From a bacterium (GTDB lineage Bacteria; UBA8248; JACPRG01; G963555815): a DNA stretch of 64,000 bases. Positions 1,303-16,016 of this stretch are shown piece after piece. The notes beneath the pieces were generated by a model that saw only the letters and a list, made by a program, of their open reading frames with translations, was not told the origin of the DNA and made no database searches. The stretch spans positions 1,281,533 through 1,345,532 of the forward strand of contig CAUVWX020000001.1 in NCBI GenBank assembly GCA_963555815.3. Reading direction: 5' to 3'. Position 1 is the stretch's first letter. Every line of letters starts with the position of its first letter. Position numbers and translations under genes: made by a program.

Positions 1303-2655
1303 TCAGACCCTGGGCAGGGCGGGCTCTCGCGGGGCCCTTTCCTCCCGTGCCCATCTCGAAAAGAGGCGCTGGACTTCGATCCCCTTAAGGACCACCGCCA
1401 CGGCCTTGAAGGCGAGCATCCCCAGGGCGGCGGCCATGGCCCCCAGGTGGCCCCCCAGCCCAAAGGAGAGGATCAAAAAAGGGGCTATCGCCACCAAGGT
1501 CCACCTCAGTTCGATGTCCATCCGTCCGATTGTGAGGAAGAAGGGGCCTTGGGGCATGGAGTAGGCCCCCGTGGCCGAGGCCAGCAGGATGATGAGATAG
1601 AGGGGAAAGGCCGCAAGGTAACTCCCGCCAGAGAACCAGAGGAAGAAGACATATCCCGCCGGAACCAGGAGGACGGAAATCCCGCCGAGCGTCAGGAGAG
1701 AGAATCTCTCGATCTTCCGGTAAGTCTGACGGAGGAATTTTAAGCCTTGGACCCTGGCCTCGGGGAGACGACTTCGGGTATTGGTGATGAGTGGGTTGGC
1801 GAGGACCCGTGGGATGTTGGCGAGCCTAAGAGCCATCGCGAACTGACCTGTCGCCGCCAGGCCGGCGAAGTGAGAGACCAAGATCACAGGGAGGTTCTCA
1901 TAGATGCTGAAGACCCCCTTGTGTGCATGGTAGGTCATGTTGACCCCAAGATACTTTCGGCAGTCCTTCAAATATCCCCCCTGGCGCCAGATCCCCCAGA
2001 CAGAGAAATAGGGAGGTTGTTTTCGTCTGGCATAGACCTTGTAGGCCAGGAAGCCGTAGCCCGATCCGATGAGATAGGCCAGCACATTGGCCCAAAGGGC
2101 ACCTTGGACGCCGAAGCCAGCCGCCACTGCCCCGAGGACGAGGGCGGATCGAACAAAGGCGTCGGTGAGGCCAAGGGCGGCATGGGCCCTCATCGCCCGA
2201 AGGCCAAGGAAGAAGAGGCTCGCAAAGAGATAGAAGATGCCGGCCAGGTTTTGGAGCGTGAGGATCATCACCAGATGAGGGGGCAGGGTTGTTCCAAAGA
2301 GGAGCGAGGAGAGAGAGCCGATCAAAAGGGACCCCACACCCAACAGGAGAAGGGAGAGGATCAGCTGACTCTTCAGGAAAAAAGCAAGGATCCTTCGGGC
2401 TTCTTCCCTCTTTCCCCGAAGGCGCGCATCCGAAAAGAAGACAACGGCGGTATTTAGAACCGGTGGCTGGACAATTACATGGAGAATGCCATAGACGCCG
2501 AAGGCGAGTGAATAGAGGCCGAGGTCTGTCGCACCTAAGAGGGAGGCCAGGGCGAGGAAGGCCAGCATGCGGACGGCATTGGACACAACGTGAGCCGCCT
2601 CAAGGTAAAAAGAATCTGCCACAAATTTTGTCCGAAGGACTTTTGGAAAACGCAT
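1303..2655 (-). CDS. Polysaccharide/oligosaccharide flippase (MOP/Wzx-type polytopic membrane protein)
   Basis: Lower part of ORF 1303..2907. From MRFPKVLRTKF (ATG 2655-2653) the product is about 450 aa of near-continuous hydrophobic helices (LAFLALASLLGATDLGLYSLAFGVYGILHVIV...), typical of Wzx-like proteins. The start is uncertain because the same frame stays open upstream into the sulfatase-like C-terminus. Confidence 0.6.
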   Translation of the reverse strand: MRFPKVLRTKFVADSFYLEAAHVVSNAVRMLAFLALASLLGATDLGLYSLAFGVYGILHVIVQPPVLNTAVVFFSDARLRGKREEARRILAFFLKSQLILSLLLLGVGSLLIGSLSSLLFGTTLPPHLVMILTLQNLAGIFYLFASLFFLGLRAMRAHAALGLTDAFVRSALVLGAVAAGFGVQGALWANVLAYLIGSGYGFLAYKVYARRKQPPYFSVWGIWRQGGYLKDCRKYLGVNMTYHAHKGVFSIYENLPVILVSHFAGLAATGQFAMALRLANIPRVLANPLITNTRSRLPEARVQGLKFLRQTYRKIERFSLLTLGGISVLLVPAGYVFFLWFSGGSYLAAFPLYLIILLASATGAYSMPQGPFFLTIGRMDIELRWTLVAIAPFLILSFGLGGHLGAMAAALGMLAFKAVAVVLKGIEVQRLFSRWAREERAPREPALPRV

Positions 2656-3963
2656 CGACAGTTTGTTGAATGGAAATGGAAAGCGGGGCAGTTTGGGTTT
2701 TTCCGCGGCCGCTCCTGAAGGGGCCTCTACGACTGGCCGCTCCAGGAGGCCCATCATCTCTTTCCGAAGGCGTTTTGCGACGTCAGGGCGCTCCCTGGAG
2801 CGCTCTTGAGTCTCATCAGGATCGCTCAGGATGTGAAAGAGCGAGGATTCCCCTGTCTTTCTGTTCCAGAGGTATTTCCATTCCCGGGAGCGGAGGGAGA
2901 CCCACATCCCGCTCCGCTAGCAAACCGGGTTTCGCTAAGGGCCAGAAGGTCGAGGTGCTCCACCCTCCCCTCCATGAGGGGAAGGAGGCTCACGCCCTCG
3001 ACGGCCCCCCCGAGGGGGATTTTTAGAGAGTCCAGGACTGTCGGGACGATATCGATCCCCCGGACCATCTCCTCTACCTTCTTGGGGTGGCAACCCGGAT
3101 AGCGGACGAGGAGTGGAACCCGGAGCTCCCCATCATAGAGATAGTGGCCGTGGGAGTGCCATTCCCCATGTTCCCCAAAGTTCATCCCGTGGTTCCCGAA
3201 GATGAAGACAAGGTCTTCGGGCCTCAGGACGTCTAGGACCGCCCGTAGGTGGCGGTCCGCATAGGAGAGACGGCTGTCCCAGTAATCCAGGTTATATCGG
3301 CGGTGAATATGGATTGGCTCTGTGTCGTCTTCCCGATCGGTCTCATGGAAGTGAAAGTCAGGTGGATCAGGACATCGCCCGTGGATGTCGAGGTAGTGAA
3401 TCATGGTGAAGTGGGGCGAGGGGGCCCTGGAGAGCCAATTGAGGGCCGTCTCGTTCGTAAGGTGGGCCACCCGGTGGCTGCCAGCCCGGGTGGCCGTGTC
3501 CTCAGGCTGGACGGGGAGATATTCGTCAAACTGGCGACCCAGGTCGTCGAAGCGGCATCGCTTGCCCAGAAATCTCCAGCGGTTGAAAAATTCTGGCCGA
3601 TAATAGCGGAGAAATCCAAAACGTGGGACCCAGTACCCCTGCCACATTGGAGCGAGCGGAGGGGACGAGCCGGGTCCGGTAACCATGGGCGGAGAGGTGC
3701 CTGGGAAGGGAGAGGAACCGCTCATCCCAGTGGAAGTCCCAGATGTTCTTCACCCGGTCAAAGGCACGGGTGTTGAGTCCTGTGAGGAAGGAGGAGAAGC
3801 TCATGTAAGTTGAAGTGGCCTGGGCGATCATGTTGGGGAAGTAGATGGCCTCTGACCGAAAGGCGTCTAGATTGGGGGTCGGGGCAGCCTCCAAGCGGGC
3901 CGTCCGAAGAGAGTCAATCACGATGAAAATGACGTTTGGCCGTCTCTTCACATCCTCAGACAC
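2656..3963 (-). pseudogene. Sulfatase-like protein (alkaline phosphatase superfamily) split across three reading frames; real decay or sequencing indels
   Basis: N-term is ORF 3526..3963 (RPNVIFIVIDSLR, TPNLDAFRSEAIYFPNMIAQATSTYMSFSSFLTG, AHGYRT). The middle is ORF 2826..3725 in another frame (IFGNHGMNFGEHGEWHSHGHYLYDGELRVPLLVRYPG, DIVPTVLDSL). The C-term is the first ~60 codons of ORF 1303..2907 (REWKYLWNRKTGESSLFHILSDPDE). Frame changes lie near 3640-3690 and at the C-run 2908-2910. Confidence 0.6.
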
Positions 3964-4167: not shown

Positions 4168-5283
4168 TCAGACACTACACTCGGGCGATGCGGAAAGCTC
4201 CGTCAAGAGTTCCCTCACAACATCAAGGTGGTTCTGGCAAGCCTGCTTCGGGGGGGTTGAGGTGATGAGGGGGACAAGGGCCTCATGGGCGGAGCCGTGA
4301 GACCGGAGCCGGACCTCCTGCCGGTCTGCCTTTAGTGGGCCAAAGACCGTGTGCGCGTCTCCGAGAACGAAGAGGTCTCCGATCCTCTCGGTCATCAGCC
4401 GAAAGCGGGACGCCGCCTCATCTCTCAGGAAGACTGATTCGACGCCGGGGGTCTCAAGAAGGCGCTGGGCCGCCTCTTTGGTGCGCTCAGGGCGCTTGAG
4501 GAAGACATAGCAGGCCCCGCTCAGGTTCTGGTGGTGGACGACGTGTTCATCCCGGATGATGGGAATCGTCCGGGATGGGATCTTCTGGCGCGCCAGCACC
4601 CGGTCTAGATCCGCCGCCTCCCGCTTTTCCCGCATCCCGTGGTCTGCGGTGATAAAAAGCCTCCGGTCTGGGTTTTCTTCCTGGATGCGACCGAGCTCGG
4701 CGTCGAGGGCGTTGAAGTGAGCCTGGGCCTCGGGGGATTCGGGAGGATGATGGTGGGGGATGTAGTCCGTCGTCGCCGCAAAGACGAGGGTGGGTTTTCT
4801 TTTCTTCAGGACGTGTCTTACGGCTTGGAGCATCCAGAGGTCGATGGTGGAGGAATAGATGTCCTCCTTCGGGCCCACAGCCTCCACCATTTCTTTTGGC
4901 GGGGACTGGGCGGAGAAGGCGATTCCGGATCCCCGGGAGAGAAGGCGGCAAAGTTTTGCCTTTGAGGTCACAAGAGCGGTGGAAAGGCCCGCAGCTTCCG
5001 CCCGTTCTAAGAGGGTGGGGGTCGCGAGAAAGGAGGAAGACTCCATAAAAGTCTCCTCTCCTGTGTGTGAATCGTAGTGATAGTTGGAGGTGATCCCATG
5101 GATTTCTGGAAAGGACCCTGTGAGAAGAGAGGCGCAATTGACATTGGTCACGGTGGGGATGACGGCGTGGACAAGGGAGCGAGTTCCGGAGTGGCCGATG
5201 TGATCTAGATGGGGGGTTTTGACCACCTCCAGGTAGGCAGGGTCGAGTCCGTCGATGCAGAGGATGAGGACTGGGCTCTTGAT
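4168..5283 (-). CDS. Nucleotide pyrophosphatase/phosphodiesterase-type enzyme (alkaline phosphatase superfamily, NPP/PhnA-like)
   Basis: ORF 4168..5226 carries IPTVTNVNCASLLTGSFPEIHGI (Thr-nucleophile region) and FITADHGM. The conserved metal-binding ILCIDGLDPAYL lies in frame upstream of the GTG used by the track. I extended the CDS to ATC 5283-5281, which sits 6 nt after AGGAGG (5295-5290). The start codon is uncertain. Confidence 0.65.
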   Translation of the reverse strand: MKSPVLILCIDGLDPAYLEVVKTPHLDHIGHSGTRSLVHAVIPTVTNVNCASLLTGSFPEIHGITSNYHYDSHTGEETFMESSSFLATPTLLERAEAAGLSTALVTSKAKLCRLLSRGSGIAFSAQSPPKEMVEAVGPKEDIYSSTIDLWMLQAVRHVLKKRKPTLVFAATTDYIPHHHPPESPEAQAHFNALDAELGRIQEENPDRRLFITADHGMREKREAADLDRVLARQKIPSRTIPIIRDEHVVHHQNLSGACYVFLKRPERTKEAAQRLLETPGVESVFLRDEAASRFRLMTERIGDLFVLGDAHTVFGPLKADRQEVRLRSHGSAHEALVPLITSTPPKQACQNHLDVVRELLTELSASPECSV

Positions 5284-5342: not shown

Positions 5343-6110
5343 TCAAGGCTTTTTGGGGGGCCAGACCTTCTGGGCCTCATGATAATCTTGAGGGGTGTCT
5401 ATCTCAAAGACACCTCCCTCAATGTCTATGGTACCCACTGGGAACCCTCGTCCGGTGAGCTCAGAGAAAAAATCCGTCAGGTAGGCCTTCTCGAAGGTCG
5501 CAGCTTGTTGAAAGGCCCCTTCGGGCTGGGTGCGATAGGCCTCTGAGAGGTCCCGGTAGATGCGGCGGGCCCGTTTGGCCCCCTCAGGGGAGAATTTTGC
5601 CAGGCCGATGAACTCCCCGTGGGCCGTCTCAGGGTCTTTGAACCCTTTCCCGATCTGGACCACTTTCCCCGCGGAGGCCCAGACGAGGTCCGCCTCCTCG
5701 ACGGGATGCTGGAGGCGACCCAGGTAGCGCTCCCGCCACCTTAGGTCGCACACCACACCCACTTCCCCCGGGTAAGCCAGAAGCCTCTCCACTACCTCTG
5801 GACCATATAAGATGTCCGAGTAGGCAGGAATGAATCCTTCAGCCATAAAGGGAGAGGCGCAGAACAGAGAACGAAGCGTGGCAGTATTCCCGAAGTCCGG
5901 ATTTTCAAAGTAGGTGAGGCCGGGATAGTTGATGGTCTCGCCCAGGTGGCCCCGGACAAGGGCGATCTCCCTCACCTCGGCGGCCCTCAGCGACTCAAGC
6001 TGCCAATCGAGAATGGTCTTTTGGCCTATCCGATGAAGACACTTTGGAAGATCCTGGGCAAGGGGCATCATCCGGGATCCCAAGCCAGCTGCGAGGATGA
6101 TGGCCTTCAA
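5343..6110 (-). CDS. Nucleotidyltransferase, LicC/PntC-like (probable phosphonate or phospho-alcohol cytidylyltransferase)
   Basis: MKAIILAAGLGSRMMPLAQDLPKCL has the canonical G-x-G-S-R NTP-binding signature. The GEFIGLAKF motif and the 255 aa size fit the family. Confidence 0.8.
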   Translation of the reverse strand: MKAIILAAGLGSRMMPLAQDLPKCLHRIGQKTILDWQLESLRAAEVREIALVRGHLGETINYPGLTYFENPDFGNTATLRSLFCASPFMAEGFIPAYSDILYGPEVVERLLAYPGEVGVVCDLRWRERYLGRLQHPVEEADLVWASAGKVVQIGKGFKDPETAHGEFIGLAKFSPEGAKRARRIYRDLSEAYRTQPEGAFQQAATFEKAYLTDFFSELTGRGFPVGTIDIEGGVFEIDTPQDYHEAQKVWPPKKP

Positions 6111-6151: not shown

Positions 6152-6838
6152 TTAGCCTTCAAACCACTGCACATCCTCAATGATCCGGGCTGCCCCCCTC
6201 TTTCCAATAATGGCGAGTTCCTGGGCGGCCTCCCCCGAGAGGTTCCCGGCAAAAGTGAAGGCTAGAATTTCGGCTGGGTCCTTGGGGTTACAGCTGAGGA
6301 AAGAGTGGGGGACGAAGGGGCGGATGTAGAAACAGTCTCCTTCCTCCATTTCCTGTCTTTTGATTTCCCCCTCCGATTTCCAGTAGAAGCGAAGCCGTCC
6401 GTGCAACACATAAGTGCACTGATGGAGGGAATGTCCTTTGTTCATCTGCAGATCCGCCTCATCGGAGCACAGGAGGGTGAGAAGTTCCGGTTTCATGGTT
6501 GGGATCTCGGTGCTCGTCACAAGGTCAGCATATTCATAGTAGGGTTTCCCACCCCGCGTAATGGTCCGCACATAACGGTCTCGCTTTCTCAAGATCTTGA
6601 CGCCGTCCGTAGTGTCCCTCGCCATGGGGAACATGTCCCGAACATTGAGGGTCATCGCTTGGGCCAATTGTTGAATCTGGTCGAACGTTGGAGAAATCTC
6701 TCCTGACTCGATCTCCTGGATGGTTTTGACTGGCAGGCCGGCCCTTTCAGCAAGGAGATCTTGCGTCAACTTCCCACTGTTTCGATGGGCGAGAATGAGC
6801 GTGCCGAAATCCATTGAGAGGCTAGATGTCGTCTTCAT
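6152..6838 (-). CDS. HppE-like protein: XRE-type helical domain + single cupin with a His/Gln/His ligand pattern (candidate phosphonate oxygenase; could instead be an XRE-cupin regulator)
   Basis: ORF 6152..6895. I prefer ATG 6838 (AAAGGAG 7 nt upstream); a TTG at 6895 would overlap the upstream stop. HTH: GKLTQDLLAERAGLPVKTIQEIESGE. Cupin core: NKGHSLHQCTYVLHGRLRFYW...GDCFYIRPFVPHSF. Confidence 0.65.
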   Translation of the reverse strand: MKTTSSLSMDFGTLILAHRNSGKLTQDLLAERAGLPVKTIQEIESGEISPTFDQIQQLAQAMTLNVRDMFPMARDTTDGVKILRKRDRYVRTITRGGKPYYEYADLVTSTEIPTMKPELLTLLCSDEADLQMNKGHSLHQCTYVLHGRLRFYWKSEGEIKRQEMEEGDCFYIRPFVPHSFLSCNPKDPAEILAFTFAGNLSGEAAQELAIIGKRGAARIIEDVQWFEG

Positions 6839-6891
6839 CACCTCGCTCCTTTCAGATGGAAGACTTTTCCGTGTGGATTGTCCACCCGACG

Positions 6892-8013
6892 TCAAAACAC
6901 GGCCATCAAGATCTTCTTGATGTCCTCCCGGGACAACGGCCTCGGATTGTAGCCCATTCGCTCCGGATAAGACCAGTCTTGAATGAGTGCTTCTACGTCC
7001 CCCTCCCTAAGCCCAAGGGCCGTGAGCCTCATCGGGTGACCTGCCTCCCGAAGGAGCCGGGAGAGGGCCTTCCCGCCTGCTTCAGCGTCAGGGGCCCCAA
7101 GGGCCCGGGCAATGGCCGAGGCCGCCTCAGGGGCCGCCTCGGTGTTGAAGGGGAGGAGGGGAGGAAGGGTAATGGAGCAGGCCACTCCATGGGGAACCTG
7201 GTAGAGGAGCGTCAAAGGATAGGAGAGGGCGTGAGCCGCGGCCGTCTTCGTCTGACTGAAGGCCAAACCTGCATGGAGGCTCGCCCGGCTCACCTCGCTC
7301 CTCGCCTTCAGATTCTGGGGGTCCTGTCTTACCCGAGGAAGACCAGCGGCCAGCCCCCTCACCGCCTCCAGGGCCAAGAGGGTGGAGATGGGGTTTCGGT
7401 TCCGAGACCAGCAGGCCTCCACCGCGTGGGAGAGGGCATCCAGACCGCTCGCCATGGTCACGGAAGGTGGAAGGGAAAGGGTCAGAGTCGGATCGACCAG
7501 GGTGAGATCCGGAAAGAGACCAGGGCCTTCAAGAGAATATTTTCTCCTTCCTTCCCAGTCCCAGAGGGTGGCCCAGGGCGTGACCTCGCTCCCGGTCCCT
7601 GCCGTCGTCGGGATAGCCACCAGGGGAAGCCGTGTCGTTCCAGGCGGCACGCCCTCTCGAAGATATCTCAAGAGCTCTTCCTCATTTGCCAAAAGTGCTA
7701 CAGCCTTCGCCATATCAATGACACTTCCGCCGCCCACCGCCAGGATAATCTCGGCCCCCTTCTCCCTGGCGAGCTGGCTTGTCGTCAGGGCGCTCGAGGG
7801 GCTTGGGTTCGGGGGGACGGGCGGAGCCGCATCGACCGAGAAACCGTCGAGGAGTTTTAGTAGGCGGGCATACAGAGGGGATTGAAAAAGGTGGTTTCCG
7901 GCAAGGAGGAAGATGTGTCCTCTGAGCTCTCGAAGGAGATCAGGGAGGGTATCGAGGACCCCAATGCCGAAGTGGACAGAAGTGGGGAGGTGAAAACGGA
8001 AGTCTTCCTTCAT
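6892..8013 (-). CDS. Iron-containing (group III) alcohol dehydrogenase, PhpC/FomC-like (phosphonoacetaldehyde reductase candidate)
   Basis: ORF 6892..8040 with an Fe-ADH pattern (ILAVGGGSVIDMAKA, PTTAGTGSEVT, histidine-rich C-terminal half). ATG 8013-8011 overlaps the upstream stop as ATGA. Confidence 0.8.
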   Translation of the reverse strand: MKEDFRFHLPTSVHFGIGVLDTLPDLLRELRGHIFLLAGNHLFQSPLYARLLKLLDGFSVDAAPPVPPNPSPSSALTTSQLAREKGAEIILAVGGGSVIDMAKAVALLANEEELLRYLREGVPPGTTRLPLVAIPTTAGTGSEVTPWATLWDWEGRRKYSLEGPGLFPDLTLVDPTLTLSLPPSVTMASGLDALSHAVEACWSRNRNPISTLLALEAVRGLAAGLPRVRQDPQNLKARSEVSRASLHAGLAFSQTKTAAAHALSYPLTLLYQVPHGVACSITLPPLLPFNTEAAPEAASAIARALGAPDAEAGGKALSRLLREAGHPMRLTALGLREGDVEALIQDWSYPERMGYNPRPLSREDIKKILMAVF

Positions 8014-8576
8014 GCCACTTCGTTCTCGGACTTTAAACATTCGCGCAAACGCTGCGTTAAGACTTCGGGTGGAATGGATACCCGGCCTATGCCTGGCGTT
8101 CCCTCGGGGCTTACCTTGACCCAGAAAAATGACGGCCCCGCTTTGATGACGTTAAGGGTCTCTCTGAGCTCTGTTGGCGAGGAGAGGGTGTAGACCTCGC
8201 GGTAGCCGGCTGAGGCGGCGATGTCTGCCAAAGACAGATGGCCGCCTGGCCTTGGCTGTCCACCGGTGGATTCGTAGATGCCATTATCGAGGACGAGGTG
8301 GATGAGGCGTCCTCCGTTGGCCATTAATGGAAGGGTGCTGAGTCCCATGAGAAAGCTTCCGTCTCCATCCAGGATCACCACTGGGCGTTCAGGGCGAAGA
8401 AGCGAGACGGCAAGGCCGAAGGAGGAGAGAAGGCCCATGGAACCTATCATGTAGAACTGGTTTGGCCGATCTCCAAGGGCGAAGAGTTCCCGAGAGATCA
8501 TCCCTGTTGTTGAGAGGAGAACTCCCTTGGACCCGAAGGCCTCCTGAATGATCTGAAGGGCCTCAGCACGCCTCAT
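8010..8576 (-). CDS. TPP-dependent 2-oxoacid decarboxylase, beta subunit (phosphonopyruvate / sulfopyruvate decarboxylase type)
   Basis: From MRRAEALQIIQEAF (ATG 8576-8574) within ORF 8010..8882. TPP-binding motif ILDGDGSFLMGLSTLPLMANGGRLIHLVLDNGIYESTGGQ. The ATGA overlaps the alpha subunit stop. Confidence 0.75.
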   Translation of the reverse strand: MRRAEALQIIQEAFGSKGVLLSTTGMISRELFALGDRPNQFYMIGSMGLLSSFGLAVSLLRPERPVVILDGDGSFLMGLSTLPLMANGGRLIHLVLDNGIYESTGGQPRPGGHLSLADIAASAGYREVYTLSSPTELRETLNVIKAGPSFFWVKVSPEGTPGIGRVSIPPEVLTQRLRECLKSENEVA

Positions 8577-9058
8577 CCGATCATCCCTTCCCGGAGGATA
8601 AGAGCTGCGGGGAGGCGCGTTTCCAGCATCTCTCGAAAGAGGGGTGAGAGACCGTCTGTGGCCTTTGGGGAGAAGACGAGAGAGGGAATTCCTAAGAGAT
8701 CCAAAAGGGAGAGCATCTTTTCTCCCATGACCCAGTGTTCTGGAGCGTCCTGGCGGGTTTCCCCTCTCCAGGAGATCACCATCAGGATGGGGATGCGGTA
8801 GGGCAGGTTGAAAGAGGTTAGGCCGTTCACCACGTTTCCTAGGCCCGAATTCTGGATGAGGATGCCCCCTGGCCGCCCGCACATGTAGGCCCCGCTTGCC
8901 AGCCCCAGGGCCGTGTCCTCCCGAGCTGCGGGGAGATAGGTGACCTCAGGGTCGGCTTCGGCCTCGATCAGGAGGGATTTCAGGAGAGAGCAGGGGACCC
9001 CTGAGAAGAAGGTGAGACCGTGCGATTTCAGAGTTGCCCAGAATCTTTGGGCGTCCAT
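8573..9058 (-). CDS. TPP-dependent 2-oxoacid decarboxylase, alpha subunit (PYR domain)
   Basis: From MDAQRFWATLKSHGLTFFSGVPCSLLKSL (ATG 9058) within ORF 8573..9163. GILIQNSGLGN motif. 162 aa, starting 10 nt after the upstream stop. Confidence 0.75.
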   Translation of the reverse strand: MDAQRFWATLKSHGLTFFSGVPCSLLKSLLIEAEADPEVTYLPAAREDTALGLASGAYMCGRPGGILIQNSGLGNVVNGLTSFNLPYRIPILMVISWRGETRQDAPEHWVMGEKMLSLLDLLGIPSLVFSPKATDGLSPLFREMLETRLPAALILREGMIG

Positions 9059-9068
9059 CTCATCATCC

Positions 9069-11009
9069 TTAGCGGACGCGGCTCCAGGCCCGCTGATAGT
9101 CCTCAAAGGTATCCACATCCATCCAGCCGTGTAAGGCTTCAAAAGCCACCACCTTTTCTCCACGCTGGATGAGCTCTTGGATCATGTCCGTGAAGCCCGC
9201 CTGTTCCAGGGAAGGCGCCTCGTGGAGGGGGGCGCCGGTCTTGCGTTGCAGGAGATCCTGATAGACCTCTCGAAGGATTTTCGTCCCTCGCTCCGAGAAC
9301 ATGCATAGGCCAACGAACTCCCCCTGAGACTGCTCTGGGTCCAGGCGGCGGCCGATCCGAAGAACTCGGGCATAAGATCCATCTCCAGCAAGACTCAGGG
9401 AGGGGTCCGTCATCACCAGCTCGGGGGGAAACTGGGCATCTTTTTTCGTCTCAGAAAAGGAGCGGTCTACGAGAAGGCTCACATCGGCTGTGCTTCGAAG
9501 AAGCCCCTCTAAGAGCTGCCGCTCAAATAGGACGTCGCCGTACAGGAAGAGAAATGGTCCCTCCATCTCGGCTTCGGCGCAGAAAAGGGAGGAGAGGATG
9601 TGGGTCTCGCGAAAGCGCAGATTGTCATAGTAGCGAAGGTTGGGGAGATTGACCTTCTCTCTGAGGTATCCACGGACAACCGCGATCTCTCGGATGTTCA
9701 AGGTGTTGAGGGTTTCCACCTGGCGCTCCAGAATGGATTTCCCCTTAATGTCGAGCATGGCCTTGGGCCGATCTTCGGTCAGGGGGAGAAGCTCCTCATG
9801 AGGCCCAGCCGCTACGATGAGGGCACGAAGGCGGTGACCGCCGACCGGAAGAAAGGCCTGCTCTTGGCGTTTCATGGACGAGAGGTCGATGAGCTGGTAG
9901 ACGTCCTCTAGGGGGACGATCCGGTCATCCACGGCGCTCGCCTGACCCTCGGTGAGAAGGCGCTGAAAAACCTCTCGCATTCCAAAGACGCAAGCCCGGA
10001 GGGCCTGGTTGGCAAAGATAACCGCCTTGAAGCCCCAGGCGGAGAGCTCCTTTACAGATGTCGTCTTATACATGGTCGGGACTGACACGAGGGGACAGGG
10101 CCGGTCCCACTGCCGGGCGAACTCCCGGACCTCCTCGGGGGAGGGGGACCTCGAGTGGATCAAGATGGCGTCAGCCCCAGCGTCGGCATAAGCCCGGGCC
10201 CGTCGAAGGGCCTCCCCCATCCCCCACCCGGCAATGAGTGCCTCACATCGGGCCATGACGAAAAATTCCGGCGTCTGCTGGTTTGCCTTAGCGGCTTGTA
10301 GCTTTCCGACATGCTCCTCGACAGAGACAAGCTCCTGTCTCACTCCTGGGTAGAGGCTGCATCGTTTGGGAAAGGCATTATCCTCAATACAGATCCCCGC
10401 TAGGCCTGCGCGCTCATACTCCACCACAGTTCTGATCACATTGATGGCGTTTCCGTACCCGTTGTCGCAGTCAGCAATGATGGGCAGGGCGACGGCATCG
10501 TTCATCTGGCGAGCGGCCTCCAGGTTCTCACTCATCGTCAAAAGGTTGGCGTCGGGCATCCCACGAGCCGCTGAGACCGAGAAGCCGCTGGCCCAGATGG
10601 CGTCGAAGCCCGCCTCCTCTGCGATCTTGGCACTGATCCCATCATGTGCCCCCGCCAACAGAACCACAGAGGGCCCCTCAAGGAGGGCCCTGAACTGCCG
10701 AGCCCGCGAGACGCCATTGAGCGAAACTTGGCCTGACAGAAACCTTCCTGATGAAGAACCACTCAGGGCGATTTGCTCGCCTTCGTTGTCCTTGGGAGGG
10801 AGGTGGCCGCTCGCTTGCAATAGTGAACGAAGTTCCAAGCCGTAGGCCTGGGCGAGTTTTTTAAGGATGTTGAGGTGTGGGTCCTTGCGAATCCCCCGCT
10901 CGAGCTGGGAGATGTAAGGGCTTGAGACGCCTGAAGCCCCTGAAGCTTCACGGATAGAGAGTTTCGAGGCCTCTCTGGCCTTCTTTAGGACAGCTCCAAG
11001 CGGGTCCAT
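9069..11009 (-). CDS. Three-domain fusion: XRE HTH + PEP mutase-family domain + C-terminal nucleotidyltransferase-like domain
   Basis: 646 aa. Res 1-65 are HTH (SIREASGASGVSSPYISQLERGIRKDP). Res ~100-365 are PepM-like (ASGFSVSA, IIADCDNGYG, CEALIAGWGMGEALRRARAYADAGADAILIHS). Res ~393-646 are LicC-like (RPKAMLDIKGKSILERQVETL, GEFVGLCMF). Confidence 0.8.
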   Translation of the reverse strand: MDPLGAVLKKAREASKLSIREASGASGVSSPYISQLERGIRKDPHLNILKKLAQAYGLELRSLLQASGHLPPKDNEGEQIALSGSSSGRFLSGQVSLNGVSRARQFRALLEGPSVVLLAGAHDGISAKIAEEAGFDAIWASGFSVSAARGMPDANLLTMSENLEAARQMNDAVALPIIADCDNGYGNAINVIRTVVEYERAGLAGICIEDNAFPKRCSLYPGVRQELVSVEEHVGKLQAAKANQQTPEFFVMARCEALIAGWGMGEALRRARAYADAGADAILIHSRSPSPEEVREFARQWDRPCPLVSVPTMYKTTSVKELSAWGFKAVIFANQALRACVFGMREVFQRLLTEGQASAVDDRIVPLEDVYQLIDLSSMKRQEQAFLPVGGHRLRALIVAAGPHEELLPLTEDRPKAMLDIKGKSILERQVETLNTLNIREIAVVRGYLREKVNLPNLRYYDNLRFRETHILSSLFCAEAEMEGPFLFLYGDVLFERQLLEGLLRSTADVSLLVDRSFSETKKDAQFPPELVMTDPSLSLAGDGSYARVLRIGRRLDPEQSQGEFVGLCMFSERGTKILREVYQDLLQRKTGAPLHEAPSLEQAGFTDMIQELIQRGEKVVAFEALHGWMDVDTFEDYQRAWSRVR

Positions 11010-11482: not shown

Positions 11483-12400
11483 ATGGACTTTCTGTGGCAC
11501 CGAAAACGCTATCCGACAGAATTGACGGTCGATGCCCATTCCGTCTGCAACGCGACCTGCGTCACCTGCCCCTACCCGAAGCTCAGCCAAGTGTTGGATC
11601 ACGGCAAGATGGACTGGGACCTCTACACCAAGATCATCGACGACTTCGAGGGCATCTGCCGGCGGGAGGGTTTCCGGGGGTCCCTGAGCTATTGCAACAT
11701 GAGCGAGCCCACGATCCTGAAGAACTTCTTCGACTATTTGGAGTATGCCTACCGCAAAGGATGCTTCTCCGTCTATTTCAACACGAACATGTCTTTCCTG
11801 ACCCCCGCCTTCATCGACCGCCTGGTGGCAGAGAATGTCCTTCCGGACATCCATCTGAACATCATGTCCCTTGACAAGGATCAGTACGAGGAGTTCATGG
11901 GGATCGACTTTGAGACCACCATGGAGAACCTGGAGTACCTGGTGGAGCACTACGACACCCGTCAGGTGGACGCGGGCGTCCTCAGCCCCCCGCTGAATGG
12001 CAATGGGGTCAAGGAGTTCCAAATATTCTTCAAGAAGAGGAAGGTCAAAACCTATGTGGTCAAAGCTCGAGACCGGGCCCAGAACGTCCTCGACGAGATC
12101 CACCCCATCATAAATAAGACTTACGGCTGCAGGAAGAACCGGCCCTTGCGGCGGATGCTGGTGACCCATGACGGCCGGGTCTTTCTCTGCTGCGAGGACA
12201 TGGCCAATGAGGTCATCCTGGGGGATCTCAGGGAGGAGAGCGTCGAAGAGGTCTGGAACAGCGAGAAGTGTCGGGAGATCCTGGAGATCATCTACGAGGG
12301 GAAATCCGCAAACCCAAATTTCATCTGTTATCGCTGTGTCCATGGGGTGAAGAAAAAGCCCACCTTTCTTCATGAGGCCATGGGCTGGGACCCAGACTAG
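11483..12400 (+). CDS. Radical SAM protein with SPASM/twitch-like Cys-rich C-terminus
   Basis: C-x3-C-x2-C at CNATCVTC near the N-terminus. C-terminal cysteines LCCEDM...C...ICYRC. 305 aa, divergent from the PepM fusion. Confidence 0.8.
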   Translation: MDFLWHRKRYPTELTVDAHSVCNATCVTCPYPKLSQVLDHGKMDWDLYTKIIDDFEGICRREGFRGSLSYCNMSEPTILKNFFDYLEYAYRKGCFSVYFNTNMSFLTPAFIDRLVAENVLPDIHLNIMSLDKDQYEEFMGIDFETTMENLEYLVEHYDTRQVDAGVLSPPLNGNGVKEFQIFFKKRKVKTYVVKARDRAQNVLDEIHPIINKTYGCRKNRPLRRMLVTHDGRVFLCCEDMANEVILGDLREESVEEVWNSEKCREILEIIYEGKSANPNFICYRCVHGVKKKPTFLHEAMGWDPD

Positions 12401-12476
12401 GTCCGTCGTTGCATTTCTTCCTTGGCGATCTTATGCGCTTTTGCGCGCCACCTCTTCTTCTTGAGCGGAACGGCTG

Positions 12477-12629
12477 ATGGAATTTCTAAGACACCGAAAG
12501 TGCTATCCGATGAAGATAACAACGGAAGGACTCCACAACCTCTCTTCCGTGGCGCAGACACCCATGTTTGAAAGGGGTATGCAAGGGGGAAAAAGGGATT
12601 TTCGATTTCTGTCCGCCGGAAACAATTAG
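12477..12629 (+). pseudogene. 5' remnant of a second radical SAM paralogue (50 codons, no Cys motif)
   Basis: 12460-12510 repeats 11466-11516 at roughly 80% identity, including the RBS region and start (MEFLRHRKCYPMKIT versus MDFLWHRKRYPTELT). Similarity is then lost and a TAG follows at 12627-12629. Confidence 0.45.
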
Positions 12630-12680
12630 GCAAACCAGATCGCAATCATAGTTCTGAAGATCGCAGATTAGAAGCCTTGT

Positions 12681-13652
12681 ATGATCCCTCATGAGTTATC
12701 TCCAAGAAAGATTAGGTTCCCTGAAACCGATCATCACTCTATTGTTTTAATTTCCGGGGCCAATCTCAGACATCAAAGGTTCGGATATCTTCTCCAAAAA
12801 GAATTTGGCGATCTGGTTTTGGCCTGGTTTCAGGTCGGAAAGCTGCCCGATTCTGCATACACAAAAGGCCGTAGAGAAAAGTTACGAATCTTGTGGGAGA
12901 AGGTGAAACGCAAACTCTCAGTAGCTTATGAGATTGAGGCCATCCGGGACTACGTAAAGAATCAGGGCTTAATTAAAAGTATAAAGAAGGGATTTGTCTC
13001 CTTCTTACCGGCGCTCCATACGATATACCTATTTCACAGACGTGGAAGGCGACAACTTTATTTGGACAAGACTTTTTTTGGACAAGAACTCGAGGAACTT
13101 AAGCTACACGCAAAATTGAGTCCCATTGTAGTAGACGATCCCCATTCGGAAGAGTTCGTTCAACGAATCAAGAAGTTAGATCCTTACTTCCTTCTTTCCG
13201 TGGGCGGCCCCTTGTATAGCAAAAAGTTGTTGGAAAGCGTTCGGGGCGTTCCAATTAACCAACACGCGGGTTACTCGCCGAAATACAAAGGGGGCAATAC
13301 AGTTGAATGGGCTCTCTATAACCGGGATCTGTATGGTGTGGGAAGTACGGTCCACATTACGACCAGCGGTGCAGACGCTGGCCCCATTTTGCGCCGGTCT
13401 CATCCATGCCTGCTGGATAGTGACACGCCCGAATGCTGTTTTGTAAAGGTCTTCAAATTGGGCAATGAATTAGCTATCGAGGTGGTCAAAGACATTATGT
13501 TGAATAAGGAGATCTTCGTATACGATCAGCCGTCAGATGGCGGAATGACGTATCTGGGTTCGCAATTGAACAAGGATATTCTGGGAGCGATATATCGGGA
13601 TTTTTCAAAAAAATGGCTGAAAAAGGAACTTGTAAGACTAAGGACCTTTTGA
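12681..13652 (+). CDS. Formyltransferase-family protein (Fmt/ArnA N-domain-like)
   Basis: PINQHAGYSPKYKGGNTVEWALYNRDLYGVGSTVHITTSGADAGPIL matches the formyl-transferase core pattern (H..LP.yrG...wai, DaGpIi). GC is visibly lower, about 40-45%. Confidence 0.6.
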   Translation: MIPHELSPRKIRFPETDHHSIVLISGANLRHQRFGYLLQKEFGDLVLAWFQVGKLPDSAYTKGRREKLRILWEKVKRKLSVAYEIEAIRDYVKNQGLIKSIKKGFVSFLPALHTIYLFHRRGRRQLYLDKTFFGQELEELKLHAKLSPIVVDDPHSEEFVQRIKKLDPYFLLSVGGPLYSKKLLESVRGVPINQHAGYSPKYKGGNTVEWALYNRDLYGVGSTVHITTSGADAGPILRRSHPCLLDSDTPECCFVKVFKLGNELAIEVVKDIMLNKEIFVYDQPSDGGMTYLGSQLNKDILGAIYRDFSKKWLKKELVRLRTF

Positions 13653-13698
13653 AAGTCAACGTCCTTGTAACCAACAGTCACCCGCGGTAGGCGGTAGA

Positions 13699-14613: not shown

Positions 14614-14731
14614 GCAGGCCTGCGGAGCCCACTGCTCCTGGGAACCAATCCGGAAACCTTTAATACCGTTTATAATAAATTCGGCGAGCGAAAGGGGCTT
14701 GAGGGGCCAAAGGTTCTTGCGAGGTGATCAA

Positions 14732-15229: not shown

Positions 15230-15318
15230 ACCGCTGACGGTGGGAGGGCCTCAAACAGGAGGCCCCTCTTTTGTATCCCATCTGACTTTTGAGTTGCTTT
15301 CGTTCGTGAGGAGGTTTT

Positions 15319-15972: not shown

Positions 15973-16016
15973 AAGGTTGAAAAAGGCTGTTTTCATGGGC
16001 CAAGGGGGTTTCGGCT

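What the first reader, a model, noticed from the sequence alone, without database searches (positions are those of the whole stretch)
6152..6838. Half-size HppE-architecture cupin with a His/Gln/His (methylphosphonate-synthase-type) ligand pattern in the MPnS/HEPD slot of the cluster
SEEN: the product is an XRE-like helical domain plus one cupin. The cupin core is NKGHSLHQCTYVLHGRLRFYWKSEGEIKRQEMEEGDCFYIRPFVPHSF. Candidate metal ligands follow the spacing His(i), X(i+4), His(i+42): His codon 6433-6431, Gln codon 6421-6419, His codon 6307-6305. The Gln sits where the canonical cupin motif (H-x3-E-x6-G) has Glu. ESTABLISHED: the fosfomycin epoxidase HppE has this alpha+cupin layout with a 2-His-1-Glu triad. 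HEPD and MPnS are tandem duplications of that module, and MPnS binds iron with 2-His-1-Gln. FROM MEMORY (unverified): the core aligns without gaps to Streptomyces HppE NSGHAGNEFLFVLEGEIHMKWGDKENPKEALLPTGASMFVEEHVPHAF. The upstream tyrosine patch also matches (PYYEYADLV versus DYYVYNCLV). INFERENCE: the gene directly follows a PhpC/FomC-type Fe-ADH that should produce 2-hydroxyethylphosphonate. A single-module HppE-like enzyme with MPnS-type ligands would therefore be an undescribed type of 2-HEP (or CMP-2-HEP) oxygenase. Competing hypothesis: it is an ordinary XRE-cupin transcription factor.
Basis: partly seen in the sequence, partly recalled or inferred. Interest (0 to 1): 0.85.

Follow-up and report, generated by a model that had tools for sequence, protein, structure and literature searches.

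The report
Half-size methylphosphonate-synthase-like iron oxygenase
This 228-residue gene looks like a regulator but is a real, half-size relative of the iron enzymes that cut 2-hydroxyethylphosphonate, carries every sequence mark of methylphosphonate synthase, and belongs to an overlooked family in uncultivated bacteria that could be hidden producers of the methane precursor methylphosphonate.

Summary
Window 6152-6838 (-) encodes a 228-aa protein with one XRE-like helical domain and one cupin, and His136/Gln140/His178 lie at the stated codons.

The regulator reading is rejected:
- The best solved-structure matches by sequence are methylphosphonate synthase (MPnS, E 4e-50, both halves), S. 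albus HEPD (1.5e-40) and HppE (1e-21 to 1e-16). XRE regulators match only the helical part.
- A good AlphaFold model (pLDDT 88) finds only HppE, HEPD and MPnS in its top 40 PDB matches.
- Ten active-site positions are identical to N. maritimus MPnS. They include the Gln ligand and the Phe/Ile pair used as MPnS markers.

The gene sits in an operon of PepM-cytidylyltransferase, Ppd, Fe-ADH, this gene, a nucleotidyltransferase, a phosphodiesterase and a sulfatase-flippase. That is the layout of cell-surface methylphosphonate clusters.

It is one of at least 74 sequence clusters of 222-274-aa single-module homologues from uncultivated bacteria (Omnitrophota, Planctomycetota, Nitrospinota and others). 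Where enough flanking DNA is available these almost always lie in the same kind of cluster. Sources mostly call them "XRE regulator" or "hypothetical".

They fall outside the two-module MPnS/HEPD clade (100% bootstrap).

Best reading: a homo-oligomeric, HppE-architecture 2-HEP oxygenase, most likely making methylphosphonate. This is a new variant of a known kind. Its activity is untested.

The parts
6152..6838 (-). Single-module HppE/HEPD/MPnS-family gene: 228 aa, with the stop codon at 6152-6154
   Evidence: The identical protein P0001 is found on 2.15-Mb and 94-kb public contigs.
6846..6850 (-). Shine-Dalgarno AGGAG, 7 nt upstream of the ATG at 6838
   Evidence: Read directly from the sequence.
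6629..6811 (-). Alpha (XRE/HTH-like) domain, residues ~10-70. It includes Lys23 (codon 6772-6770), the counterpart of MPnS Lys28 and HppE Lys23
   Evidence: Pfam HTH_3 covers residues 18-62. Lys23 is invariant in 74/74 family members. The model shows helices 3-21, 26-33, 37-44 and 52-61.
6464..6628 (-). Linker and first beta-strands, residues 71-125. They carry the phosphonate-binding Arg95 (6556-6554), Tyr101 (6538-6536) and Tyr103 (6532-6530)
   Evidence: Arg95 aligns with MPnS Arg102 and Tyr103 with MPnS Tyr110, and the GKPYYEY motif is shared. All three residues are invariant in 74/74.
6251..6463 (-). Cupin barrel, residues 126-196. Key residues: Asn133 (6442-6440), His136 (6433-6431), His139 (6424-6422), Gln140 (6421-6419), Phe151 (6388-6386), Ile172 (6325-6323), His178 (6307-6305)
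   Evidence: These align with MPnS Asn145, His148, His151, Gln152, Phe162, Ile184 and His190. Pfam Cupin_2 covers 136-193.
6155..6250 (-). Conserved C-terminal helical tail, residues 197-228, ending QWFEG. HppE lacks it. It resembles the C-terminal end of the second module of MPnS (…QWFD)
   Evidence: Nearly invariant positions are L200, D203, A204, E207, L208, G212, R218, I219 and Y/W226. The model shows helix 200-221 at lower confidence.
6892..8013 (-). Fe-dependent alcohol dehydrogenase (PhpC/FomC type). It would make 2-HEP from phosphonoacetaldehyde
   Evidence: Pfam Fe-ADH plus ADH_Fe_C. Best NCBIfam model is TIGR03405 Phn_Fe-ADH, 304 bits, below cutoff. Called as 373 aa in L001.
8010..9058 (-). 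Split phosphonopyruvate decarboxylase: alpha subunit 8573-9058 and beta subunit 8010-8576
   Evidence: TPP_enzyme_N and TPP_enzyme_C. TIGR03297 covers positions 1-155 and 169-358. Gene calls of 161 and 188 aa in L001.
9069..11009 (-). Fusion protein of XRE-HTH, PEP mutase and nucleotidyltransferase (646 aa). The PepM motif is the non-canonical EDNAFPKRCS
5343..6110 (-). Stand-alone nucleotidyltransferase (255 aa). A homologue lies next to the single-module gene in nearly all related loci
   Evidence: NTP_transf_3; synteny.
4168..5046 (-). Alkaline-phosphatase-superfamily phosphodiesterase / nucleotide pyrophosphatase (PhnA-like)
   Evidence: PF01663. TIGR02335, 199 bits, below cutoff. Called as 292 aa in L001.
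1303..3963 (-). Sulfatase-family (phospho-transferase-like) domain fused to a Polysacc_synt flippase. It is interrupted by two frame changes in this window but intact (884 aa) in the 99.2%-identical L001

Best explanation
**What it is.** The gene encodes a non-heme Fe(II), O2-dependent oxygenase of the HppE/HEPD/MPnS family, built from a single alpha-helical + cupin module. The known 2-HEP-cleaving enzymes have two modules.

**Pathway (inferred from the operon).**
1. PEP is converted to phosphonopyruvate by PepM.
2. Ppd converts that to phosphonoacetaldehyde.
3. The Fe-ADH converts that to 2-hydroxyethylphosphonate (2-HEP).
4. This enzyme then acts on 2-HEP.

**Mechanism (by analogy with MPnS).**
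- 2-HEP binds Fe(II), which is held by His136, Gln140 and His178.
- The phosphonate is gripped by Arg95, Tyr103 and Asn133, and by Lys23 supplied in trans from the helical domain of a neighbouring subunit.
- O2 activation cleaves C1-C2, giving formate and a methylphosphonate radical.
- Ile172, Phe151 and His139 keep Gln140 on the iron. The radical therefore takes a hydrogen from formate, giving methylphosphonate + CO2, rather than rebounding with Fe-OH to give hydroxymethylphosphonate.

**Assembly and fate of the product (inferred).**
- With only one module, the protein should assemble like HppE into a homotetramer with four equivalent active sites.
- The adjacent nucleotidyltransferase(s) and the phosphodiesterase/sulfatase-family transferase-flippase would then activate the phosphonate and attach it to a cell-surface glycan.

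**Shown:** homology, fold, residue identity, single-module state, conserved gene neighbourhood.
**Inferred:** iron binding, substrate, product, oligomer.
For: **Sequence.**
- phmmer against PDB gives MPnS 6b9s at 4e-50, with both halves matching (88 and 83 bits). SaHEPD 6b9r scores 1.5e-40, Psf4/HppE 1.7e-21 and 7e-16, and XRE regulators E>0.005 on the HTH part only.
- The family profile gives the same ranking: MPnS 1e-67, SaHEPD 1e-48, HppE 1e-22 to 1e-18, regulators no better than 1e-6.

**Structure.**
- The AlphaFold model with a 72-sequence alignment has pLDDT 87.9.
- Foldseek ranks 1-40 are all HppE, SaHEPD, MPnS, Psf4 or PhpD, with TM 0.79 to 6b9r/6b9t. The first XRE-cupin regulator (1y9q) is rank 41 at TM 0.38.

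**Active-site residues.**
- The signature K23 R95 Y101 Y103 N133 H136 Q140 F151 I172 H178 reads KRYYNHQFIH. This equals the N. maritimus MPnS N-half and 27 MPnS-type N-halves.
- HEPD-II is ...QYGH and HppE is ...E-x-[IVL]-H.
- The third discriminating site, 139, is His as in MPnS-type sequences (26/27); HEPD-II has Tyr/Phe (13/15).
- The Gln triad plus Phe and Ile are the published criteria for MPn synthesis (PMC11978286, citing Born et al. 2017).

**Family.** In 74 single-module clusters (222-274 aa), K, R, Y, Y, N, H, Q, I and H are invariant.

**Gene context.**
- The operon is co-directional with PepM, Ppd and Fe-ADH upstream and NTP-transferase, phosphodiesterase and sulfatase-flippase downstream.
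- PepM, Ppd, Fe-ADH or NTP-transferase partners flank single-module homologues of 33-47% identity in about 20 other loci from several phyla.
- Two-module MPnS-type genes occupy the same slot in L024 and L026.

**Independent label.** JGI names a 92%-identical protein 'methylphosphonate synthase'.
Against: - No biochemical data exist for any single-module member.
- The Phe/Ile markers were defined inside the two-module clade. The single-module proteins lie outside that clade (it has 100% NJ bootstrap without them), so transferring the markers is an extrapolation.
- The MPnS-type HMM beats the HEPD-II-type HMM by only 8 bits (151.7 against 143.3).
- 44 of the 74 relatives have Tyr rather than Phe at position 151, so the family may not have a uniform product.
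- The closest relative with a sizeable contig (P0007, 54% identity) has no phosphonate genes on its 7.9-kb contig.
- This operon's PepM has a non-canonical motif (EDN...CS in place of EDK...NS), and its sulfatase-flippase is frameshifted in this assembly. This particular cluster could be decaying.
- I could not inspect model coordinates to measure the geometry of the metal site.
Confidence: 0.6

Rival explanations
1. Same fold and same substrate (2-HEP), but the product is hydroxymethylphosphonate + formate (HEPD-type) or a mixture. On this view the Phe/Ile logic does not transfer to the single-module scaffold.
For: - S. albus HEPD also uses 2-His-1-Gln and matches at 1.5e-40.
- The HMM preference for the MPnS type is small, at 8 bits.
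- The family lies outside the clade in which the markers were calibrated.
- Most relatives have the HEPD-like Tyr at position 151.
Against: - The window protein has Phe151, Ile172 and His139, matching the MPnS type at 3 of 3 discriminating positions.
- Gly at the Ile position, which marks HEPD-II, occurs in 0 of 74 single-module sequences.
- The cluster lacks the downstream enzymes of phosphinothricin-type HMP use. It instead resembles MPn-ester clusters with NTP-transferase and sulfatase.
Confidence: 0.2
2. An HppE-family enzyme with a different substrate or chemistry. Examples: it acts on CMP-2-HEP made by one of the two nucleotidyltransferases, or performs an HppE-like H2O2-dependent oxidation or dehydrogenation of a hydroxyalkylphosphonate.
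For: - A nucleotidyltransferase gene is almost always directly adjacent, and a second one is fused to PepM.
- The indel pattern and single-module build are HppE-like.
- The extra conserved C-terminal tail has no assigned role.
Against: - All residues that grip the free phosphonate dianion in MPnS (Lys, Arg, Tyr, Asn) are invariant, which argues for an unesterified phosphonate.
- The ligand is Gln, not the Glu of every HppE-like sequence examined.
- There is no cobalamin radical-SAM methyltransferase (Fom3 type) to make 2-HPP. The nearby radical-SAM gene is SPASM type.
Confidence: 0.12
3. An ordinary XRE-cupin transcription factor that senses a small molecule and regulates the phosphonate operon.
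For: - The Pfam domains are HTH_3 + Cupin_2.
- Public sources name several relatives 'XRE family transcriptional regulator'.
- XRE HTH domains are also fused to other enzymes of these clusters.
Against: - XRE regulators match only the ~60-residue helical part, at E>=1e-6, whereas MPnS matches at 1e-67.
- The best regulator structure has TM 0.38 at rank 41.
- The PuuR model scores 23 bits against a cutoff of 211.
- The full catalytic and substrate-binding set of MPnS is invariant across 74 clusters.
- The gene sits mid-operon between biosynthetic enzymes.
Confidence: 0.03

Closest known systems
Methylphosphonate synthase (MPnS), Nitrosopumilus maritimus, PDB 6b9s/6b9t
   Same: - It is the best sequence and profile match (4e-50 and 1e-67).
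- The ten active-site positions are identical, including the 2-His-1-Gln triad, Phe162/Ile184, His151, and Lys28/Arg102/Tyr110/Asn145.
- The same kind of gene cluster surrounds it: PepM, Ppd, Fe-ADH, nucleotidyltransferase, sulfatase family.
- The C-terminal ...QWF tail resembles the end of MPnS.
   Different: - MPnS has 457 aa and two tandem modules, the second catalytically dead. This protein has 228 aa and one module.
- It lacks the 6-residue insertion (DPENPK) of two-module N-halves.
- Overall identity is about 30-35%.
- It falls outside the two-module N-half clade (100% bootstrap).
Class II 2-hydroxyethylphosphonate dioxygenase (S. albus HEPD, PDB 6b9r)
   Same: - Same fold (TM 0.79) and 34% identity.
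- Same 2-His-1-Gln triad.
- Same substrate-binding residues.
   Different: - SaHEPD has Tyr/Gly where this protein has Phe/Ile.
- SaHEPD has Tyr where this protein has His139.
- SaHEPD is two-module.
HppE / Psf4, (S)-2-hydroxypropylphosphonate epoxidase (PDB 1zz6, 5u55)
   Same: - Same single alpha + cupin module size class.
- Same indel pattern.
- Lys23, Arg, Tyr-Tyr and Asn are conserved.
- These are the top Foldseek E-values.
- A homotetramer with in-trans Lys is the likely assembly.
   Different: - HppE uses 2-His-1-Glu and H2O2 and epoxidises 2-HPP.
- HppE ends right after the barrel, with no 32-aa tail.
- HppE occurs in fosfomycin clusters with Fom3 or Psf genes, which are absent here.
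- Identity is only 24-33%.
Class I HEPD (PhpD, S. viridochromogenes, PDB 3g7d)
   Same: Same superfamily and same substrate (2-HEP).
   Different: - PhpD has a 2-His-1-Glu triad.
- It is two-module.
- It is a much weaker match (1e-6 for the single sequence, 8e-15 for the profile).
XRE-cupin regulators (e.g. PuuR; V. cholerae HTH_3 protein 1y9q)
   Same: Same Pfam domain pair, HTH_3 + Cupin_2.
   Different: - No significant similarity beyond the HTH part.
- TM 0.38.
- None of the phosphonate-binding residues is shared.

Membership tests
HppE/HEPD/MPnS superfamily | A module made of an HTH-like alpha domain followed by a cupin barrel | tested here: met
   Pfam HTH_3 18-62 and Cupin_2 136-193. 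In the model, helices run to residue 69 and strands span 90-196. The top 40 Foldseek hits are all family members.
HppE/HEPD/MPnS superfamily | Significant full-length sequence similarity to solved members | tested here: met
   E 4e-50 (MPnS), 1.5e-40 (SaHEPD), 1.7e-21 (Psf4), 7e-16 (HppE). The profile search gives 1e-67 to 1e-14.
HppE/HEPD/MPnS superfamily | Facial triad H-x3-(E/Q)...H together with the phosphonate-binding Lys (alpha domain), Arg, Tyr and Asn | tested here: met
   K23, R95, Y101/Y103, N133, H136, Q140 and H178 align with the liganding residues of MPnS and HppE. They are invariant in 74/74 relatives.
HppE/HEPD/MPnS superfamily | Binds Fe(II) and turns over a hydroxyalkylphosphonate | not testable with these tools
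   Needs purified protein.
Methylphosphonate synthase (MPnS) | 2-His-1-Gln iron triad | tested here: met
   His136, Gln140 and His178 align with His148, Gln152 and His190. The criterion is as cited in PMC11978286.
Methylphosphonate synthase (MPnS) | Phe and Ile next to the Gln (Phe162/Ile184 of N. maritimus MPnS) | tested here: met
   Phe151 and Ile172. In addition, His139 matches the MPnS-type state.
Methylphosphonate synthase (MPnS) | Two tandem alpha/cupin modules (~450 aa) with a degenerate second module | tested here: not met
   The protein has 228 aa and one module. The next gene starts 41 nt downstream. There is no second HppE-family module anywhere in the 64 kb.
Methylphosphonate synthase (MPnS) | Phylogenetic placement within the clade of characterised MPnS | tested here: not met
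   The 44 mainstream two-module N-halves (MPnS plus HEPD-II) form a clade with 100% NJ bootstrap that excludes all single-module sequences. Deeper branching is unresolved.
Methylphosphonate synthase (MPnS) | Gene cluster supplying 2-HEP (PepM, Ppd, Fe-ADH), plus nucleotidyltransferase and sulfatase-family genes for conjugation | tested here: met
   Conserved in about 20 related loci. Matches the published description of mpnS neighbourhoods (PMC9381506).
Methylphosphonate synthase (MPnS) | Converts 2-HEP + O2 to methylphosphonate + CO2 | not testable with these tools
   Needs an enzyme assay.
HEPD class II | 2-His-1-Gln with Tyr and Gly at the two Gln-adjacent positions | tested here: not met
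   This protein has Phe151/Ile172. Gly at position 172 occurs in 0 of 74 single-module sequences.
HEPD class I (PhpD) | 2-His-1-Glu triad in a two-module protein | tested here: not met
   The ligand is Gln140 and the protein is single-module. The match to 3g7d is weak, at 1e-6.
HppE (fosfomycin epoxidase) | Single module of ~190-200 aa ending after the cupin barrel | tested here: inconclusive
   The single-module state and HppE-like indels are met. However, a conserved 32-aa C-terminal tail is present that HppE lacks.
HppE (fosfomycin epoxidase) | 2-His-1-Glu triad | tested here: not met
   Gln140 here. All 16 HppE-like sequences examined have Glu.
HppE (fosfomycin epoxidase) | Cluster that makes 2-hydroxypropylphosphonate (Fom3-type B12 radical-SAM methylase, or Psf2/Psf3) | tested here: not met
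   No such gene is in the operon. The nearby radical-SAM gene is SPASM type without a B12 domain.
XRE-cupin transcription regulators | Full-length similarity to characterised regulators (e.g. PuuR), with no catalytic residue set | tested here: not met
   PuuR model scores 23 bits against a cutoff of 211. Regulators match the HTH part only. 1y9q has TM 0.38.

The most novel reading that the evidence does not exclude
The single-module proteins are living representatives of the pre-duplication form from which two-module HEPD and MPnS arose. They are active homotetrameric methylphosphonate synthases. They make uncultivated, largely non-marine or particle-associated bacteria (Omnitrophota, Planctomycetota, Nitrospinota/Tectimicrobiota and others) a hidden source of methylphosphonate, and hence of aerobic methane, that current mpnS surveys miss because these genes are annotated as XRE regulators or hypothetical proteins.
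Probability: 0.3. Interest if true: 0.8.

Novelty: new variant of a known kind. Interest (0 to 1): 0.62.

Why it matters
**Biogeochemistry.** Methylphosphonate is the substrate from which C-P lyase releases methane in oxygenated water.
- Its only known biosynthetic marker is the two-module mpnS gene.
- Surveys use that marker to decide whether a community can make methylphosphonate. One sponge-microbiome study concluded that MPn must be imported because no mpnS was detected (PMC9999580). A groundwater study found MPnS in only 3 samples (PMC11978286).
- A half-size form found in groundwater- and sediment-type phyla, and mostly labelled 'XRE regulator' or 'hypothetical', would widen the list of candidate producers and habitats.

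**Enzymology.**
- A single-module enzyme with four equivalent sites would be the minimal scaffold for the unusual C-C cleavage chemistry.
- The natural Phe/Ile and Tyr/Ile subfamilies give a ready-made test of the rule that is thought to decide between methylphosphonate and hydroxymethylphosphonate.

**Evolution.**
- It fills the architectural gap between HppE (one module, Glu) and HEPD/MPnS (two modules, Gln or Glu).
- One relative (P0029) hints that the duplication happened more than once.

Tried and rejected
- **Single-sequence AlphaFold model.** pLDDT 41 and unusable. I replaced it with the alignment-based model.
- **First bootstrap script.** It timed out and was rewritten with numpy.
- **Deep branching order.** The order of HppE, the three single-module subclades, the N-halves and the C-halves could not be resolved by NJ on saturated distances. 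Supports were 2-30% for every grouping of those clades (N44+H, H+C47, Sc+C47, N44+4odd, all-S+P0029). I therefore do not claim that the single-module form is ancestral. I claim only that it is outside the two-module N-half clade.
- **In-register deletion hypothesis.** I tested whether the protein is a chimera of an MPnS N-half front and C-half back. Segment-wise identities show only slight C-half preference in the alpha domain and tail (24 against 22%, 30 against 26%) and no sharp switch. The idea is neither supported nor excluded.
- **Split second module.** None is present in the 64 kb.
- **Is the HTH fused to PepM a copy of the cupin's alpha domain?** There is no BLASTP alignment and only a weak HMM hit at 1e-4. 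It is a generic XRE HTH.
- **Born et al. 2017.** The paper (PMC5901744, DOI 10.1126/science.aao3435) is not held. The marker rule is therefore cited second-hand from PMC11978286, and the structural rationale comes from my own memory.
- **Literature searches for a described single-module MPnS/HEPD.** Nothing found. The library lacks most subscription journals, so this is weak evidence of absence.
- **Organism name.** Exact-sequence look-ups gave none. RecA neighbours of 73-77% identity are the only taxonomic hint.
Full report

Yes. Window 6152-6838 on the minus strand translates to a 228-residue protein followed by a stop, and it contains the quoted cupin core.

The ATG at 6838 is preceded by AGGAG at 6850-6846. 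The same 228-aa product was called on two public metagenome contigs of 2.15 Mb and 94 kb. Pfam sees HTH_3 (18-62) and Cupin_2 (136-193).

The gene lies 54 nt downstream of a Fe-dependent alcohol dehydrogenase whose best NCBIfam model is the phosphonate-cluster ADH TIGR03405, though below cutoff.

**2. Enzyme or regulator?**

That test was run three ways and fails each time.

- *Sequence against all PDB chains.* MPnS 6b9s scores 4e-50, S. albus HEPD 6b9r 1.5e-40, Psf4 1.7e-21 and HppE 7e-16. XRE regulators appear only at E>0.005 and cover only the ~60-residue helical part.
- *Profile of 72 relatives against PDB.* MPnS scores 1e-67, SaHEPD 1e-48, HppE 1e-22 to 1e-18 and PhpD 1e-14. Regulators reach no better than 1e-6.
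- *Structure.* A single-sequence model was useless (pLDDT 41). With the family alignment the model reached pLDDT 87.9. Foldseek ranks 1-40 in the PDB are all HppE, SaHEPD, MPnS, Psf4 or PhpD (TM 0.79 to 6b9r/6b9t). The first XRE-cupin regulator, 1y9q, is rank 41 at TM 0.38.

The query matches both halves of MPnS about equally (88 and 83 bits). This is expected of a single copy of the module that is duplicated in MPnS and HEPD.

**3. Active site**

In explicit alignments the query reads K23 R95 Y101 Y103 N133 H136 Q140 F151 I172 H178.

| Group | Signature at these positions |
|---|---|
| Window protein | KRYYNHQFIH |
| N. maritimus MPnS (Lys28, Arg102, Tyr110, Asn145, His148, Gln152, Phe162, Ile184, His190 counted; the remaining Tyr precedes Tyr110 by two) | KRYYNHQFIH |
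| 27 two-module N-halves of MPnS type | KRYYNHQFIH |
| S. albus HEPD and 14 others | ...Q-Y-G-H |
| All 16 HppE-like sequences | ...E-x-[I/V/L]-H |
| Second halves of two-module proteins | degenerate |

The 2-His-1-Gln triad is therefore shared with class II HEPD. The Phe and Ile next to the Gln separate MPnS from HEPD. These are the criteria used in the field and are credited to Born et al. 2017 (PMC11978286). I could not obtain Born et al. itself.

A search for further discriminating columns found one more, position 139. It is His in 26/27 MPnS-type sequences and Tyr/Phe in 13/15 HEPD-II sequences. The window protein and all sampled single-module relatives have His. An HMM of MPnS-type N-halves scores the protein 151.7 bits against 143.3 for a HEPD-II-type HMM. 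The preference is modest.

**4. It is a family, not a one-off**

A word-indexed search with the single sequence found only four proteins. The exhaustive HMMER search of 1.84 billion representatives found 1033 relatives. Most are 440-470 aa with two matched stretches, and a few are about 225-242 aa with one stretch.

Searching again with an alignment of the short ones returned 73 short, full-length hits (222-274 aa). Adding P0005 and P0021 and setting aside two truncated sequences (P0040, P0004) gave the 74 analysed, all of 222-274 aa. In all 74, Lys, Arg, Tyr, Tyr, Asn, His, Gln, Ile and His are invariant. Position 151 is Phe in 29, Tyr in 44 and Cys in 1.

Source names are 'hypothetical protein', 'XRE family transcriptional regulator' or 'transcriptional regulator with XRE-family HTH domain'. 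The host MAGs are Omnitrophica and Verrucomicrobiae. The one exception is a 92%-identical JGI protein labelled 'methylphosphonate synthase'.

In GTDB species representatives, single-module genes occur only in MAGs:

- Omnitrophota (4)
- Planctomycetia (3)
- Nitrospinia
- Actinomycetota
- Gammaproteobacteria
- one bin labelled Thaumarchaeota UBA141
- two unclassified bins

All of these have maximal ORFs of 231-257 aa.

Its RecA is 73-77% identical to RecA of MAGs labelled Tectomicrobia and Nitrospinota.

**5. Gene neighbourhood**

On the minus strand the genes run co-directionally with short gaps or overlaps:

| Coordinates | Gene |
|---|---|
| 11009-9069 | XRE-HTH + PEP mutase + nucleotidyltransferase fusion |
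| 9058-8573 and 8576-8010 | split phosphonopyruvate decarboxylase |
| 8013-6892 | Fe-ADH |
| 6838-6152 | this gene |
| 6110-5343 | nucleotidyltransferase |
| 5046-4168 | alkaline-phosphatase-family phosphodiesterase |
| 3963-1303 | sulfatase-family domain fused to a polysaccharide flippase |

Glycosyltransferases follow in the longer contig L001.

PepM, Ppd and ADH make 2-HEP. Published accounts describe mpnS neighbourhoods as carrying nucleotidyl- or phospho-transferases, arylsulfatase-like genes and glycosyltransferases, and interpret this as synthesis of methylphosphonate esters on surface polymers (PMC9381506).

The association is conserved. Homologues of only 33-47% identity, from loci with GC of 38-69%, are flanked by the same partners. 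The typical order is NTP-transferase, cupin, PepM-NTP-transferase, Ppd, Fe-ADH. Two JGI metagenome loci show the order Ppd, Fe-ADH, cupin, PepM.

Two-module genes with the MPnS signature occupy the same slot directly after the NTP-transferase in L024 and L026.

The one exception among loci with usable flanks is P0007 (54% identity). Its 7.9-kb contig shows no phosphonate genes.

**6. Relation to the two-module enzymes**

I split 47 two-module proteins into halves and aligned them with 26 single-module and 16 HppE-like sequences plus the PDB references.

- *Distances.* The single-module group has the shortest mean distance to every other group: 1.72 to N-halves, 2.01 to HppE and 2.38 to C-halves. 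By comparison N-H is 2.33 and N-C is 2.75.
- *Clades.* The 44 mainstream N-halves, both MPnS-type and HEPD-II-type, form a clade with 100% NJ bootstrap that excludes every single-module sequence. The single-module sequences fall into three subclades. The window's subclade has 64% support; the others have 100% and 62%. The order of the deep branches is unresolved.
- *Indels.* The single-module proteins lack the 6-residue insertion of two-module N-halves. They share two small length states with HppE. They also carry a conserved 32-residue C-terminal tail (…QWF/Y) that HppE lacks and that resembles the end of the second MPnS module.

These proteins are therefore not recent truncations of ordinary MPnS. 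Whether they precede the duplication is open. Segment-wise identities give no clear sign of an N-half/C-half chimera. No second module is present elsewhere in the window.

**7. How it most likely works**

Shown:
- the fold
- the ligand and substrate-binding residue set
- the single-module state
- the operon position after the 2-HEP-forming ADH

Inferred, using established knowledge of the family (HEPD and MPnS share a methylphosphonate-radical intermediate, PMC5350257; HppE tetramer with in-trans Lys23, from my own knowledge of the HppE structures):
- Fe(II) is bound by His136, Gln140 and His178.
- 2-HEP chelates the iron. Its phosphonate is held by Arg95, Tyr103 and Asn133, and by Lys23 from a neighbouring subunit.
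- O2 drives C1-C2 cleavage.
- Ile172, Phe151 and His139 keep Gln140 on the iron. The radical therefore abstracts hydrogen from formate and yields methylphosphonate + CO2.
- A single module implies an HppE-like homotetramer with four active sites. MPnS/HEPD dimers have two.
- The neighbouring nucleotidyltransferase(s) and the phosphodiesterase/sulfatase-family proteins would then activate the phosphonate and transfer it to a glycan.

My confidence that this is a 2-HEP-consuming oxygenase is about 0.85. My confidence that its product is methylphosphonate is about 0.6.

**8. Caveats specific to this locus**

- The PepM here carries EDNAFPKRCS where nearly all related loci have the canonical EDK-x5-NS.
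- The sulfatase-flippase gene is interrupted by two frame changes relative to an intact 884-aa ORF in a 99.2%-identical contig. These may be assembly errors or decay.
- The cupin gene itself is 100% identical between the contigs.

**9. Novelty**

The chemistry, fold and pathway are known. New are the architecture (one module carrying the MPnS signature), the extra tail, the phylogenetic position and the host range. I found no description of such proteins in the searchable literature.

The reference alignment used in a 2025 MPnS survey is derived from Born et al. Its 'HppE-like' entries appear to be Glu-type: both shown carry the Glu motif, and the Glu-type motif NEF occurs 16 times in the file. 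It has no match to the GHFFHQ motif of the largest single-module subclade. That file was truncated when stored.

I therefore rate it a new variant of a known kind, with moderate-to-high interest. It bears on who makes methylphosphonate outside the open ocean, and it offers a minimal enzyme and natural Phe/Tyr variants to test the product-determining rule.

Noticed in passing
window 9069-11009 (-), motif near 10388: The PEP mutase domain carries EDNAFPKRCS instead of the canonical EDK-x5-NS catalytic motif (Lys to Asn, Asn to Cys). Nearly all related single-module loci have EDKxFPKxNS, and L009 has EDNVFPKRNS. TIGR02320 scores 299 bits, just under its 320-bit cutoff.
   Followed up: partly
window 10825-10986 (-) (residues 8-61 of the PepM fusion); L008 8868-10004: A generic XRE helix-turn-helix domain is fused to the N-terminus of the PepM-nucleotidyltransferase protein here, and to the stand-alone nucleotidyltransferase in L008. 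It has no BLASTP similarity to the cupin's alpha domain. Its role is unknown.
   Followed up: partly
window 1303-3963 (-): The sulfatase-family + Polysacc_synt flippase gene is broken by two frame changes (near 3619-3662 and 2916-2919). In the 99.2%-identical contig L001 it is an intact 884-aa ORF. This is either assembly indels or a decaying gene.
   Followed up: partly
protein P0029 (447 aa, from the representative library): This is a two-module protein in which both halves group with the largest single-module subclade (62% NJ bootstrap). Its second half has already lost the active-site residues. This suggests an independent, parallel duplication of the module.
   Followed up: partly
proteins P0006, P0008, P0025, P0028 (448-450 aa): These two-module relatives include the top-scoring hit to the query. 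Their first module reads H-x3-[Gly/Ser/Ala]...H, so there is no third protein ligand, while all phosphonate-binding residues are kept. The iron site has an open coordination position, and the chemistry is unknown.
   Followed up: no
window 11483-12400 (+); also L003 4697-5707 and 7567-9015, L007 1-724, L008 7245-8729: Radical-SAM/SPASM genes lie next to the phosphonate cluster in several unrelated loci. They could be anaerobic sulfatase-maturase-like enzymes serving the sulfatase-family protein. They are not Fom3-type, as they have no B12 domain.
   Followed up: no
window 12000-16000: GC content drops to 0.47-0.53 against 0.58-0.60 in the flanks. The stretch encodes a formyltransferase-like protein, a protein with no Pfam match here that carries only a faint polysaccharide-deacetylase hit in L001, and a DUF1989 protein. 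It may be an acquired glycan-modification islet.
   Followed up: no
L003 and L008 (both GCA_040960315.1): One MAG carries two separate single-module phosphonate clusters. One has the Phe-type enzyme and the other the Tyr-type.
   Followed up: no
L009 8001-8669 (MAG labelled Thaumarchaeota archaeon UBA141): A single-module, Phe/Ile-type gene (41% identity) with PepM, Ppd, NTP-transferase and Fe-ADH sits in a bin labelled Thaumarchaeota. Cultured Thaumarchaeota have the two-module MPnS. This could be mis-binning or a real archaeal occurrence.
   Followed up: no
L006 1849-2565 (GCA_023248195.1): P0007 is 54% identical to the window protein, second only to L030/L031 (47%) among relatives with several kb of flanking DNA. 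On its 7.9-kb contig it sits among GATase, rhodanese and BNR-repeat genes, with no phosphonate genes.
   Followed up: partly
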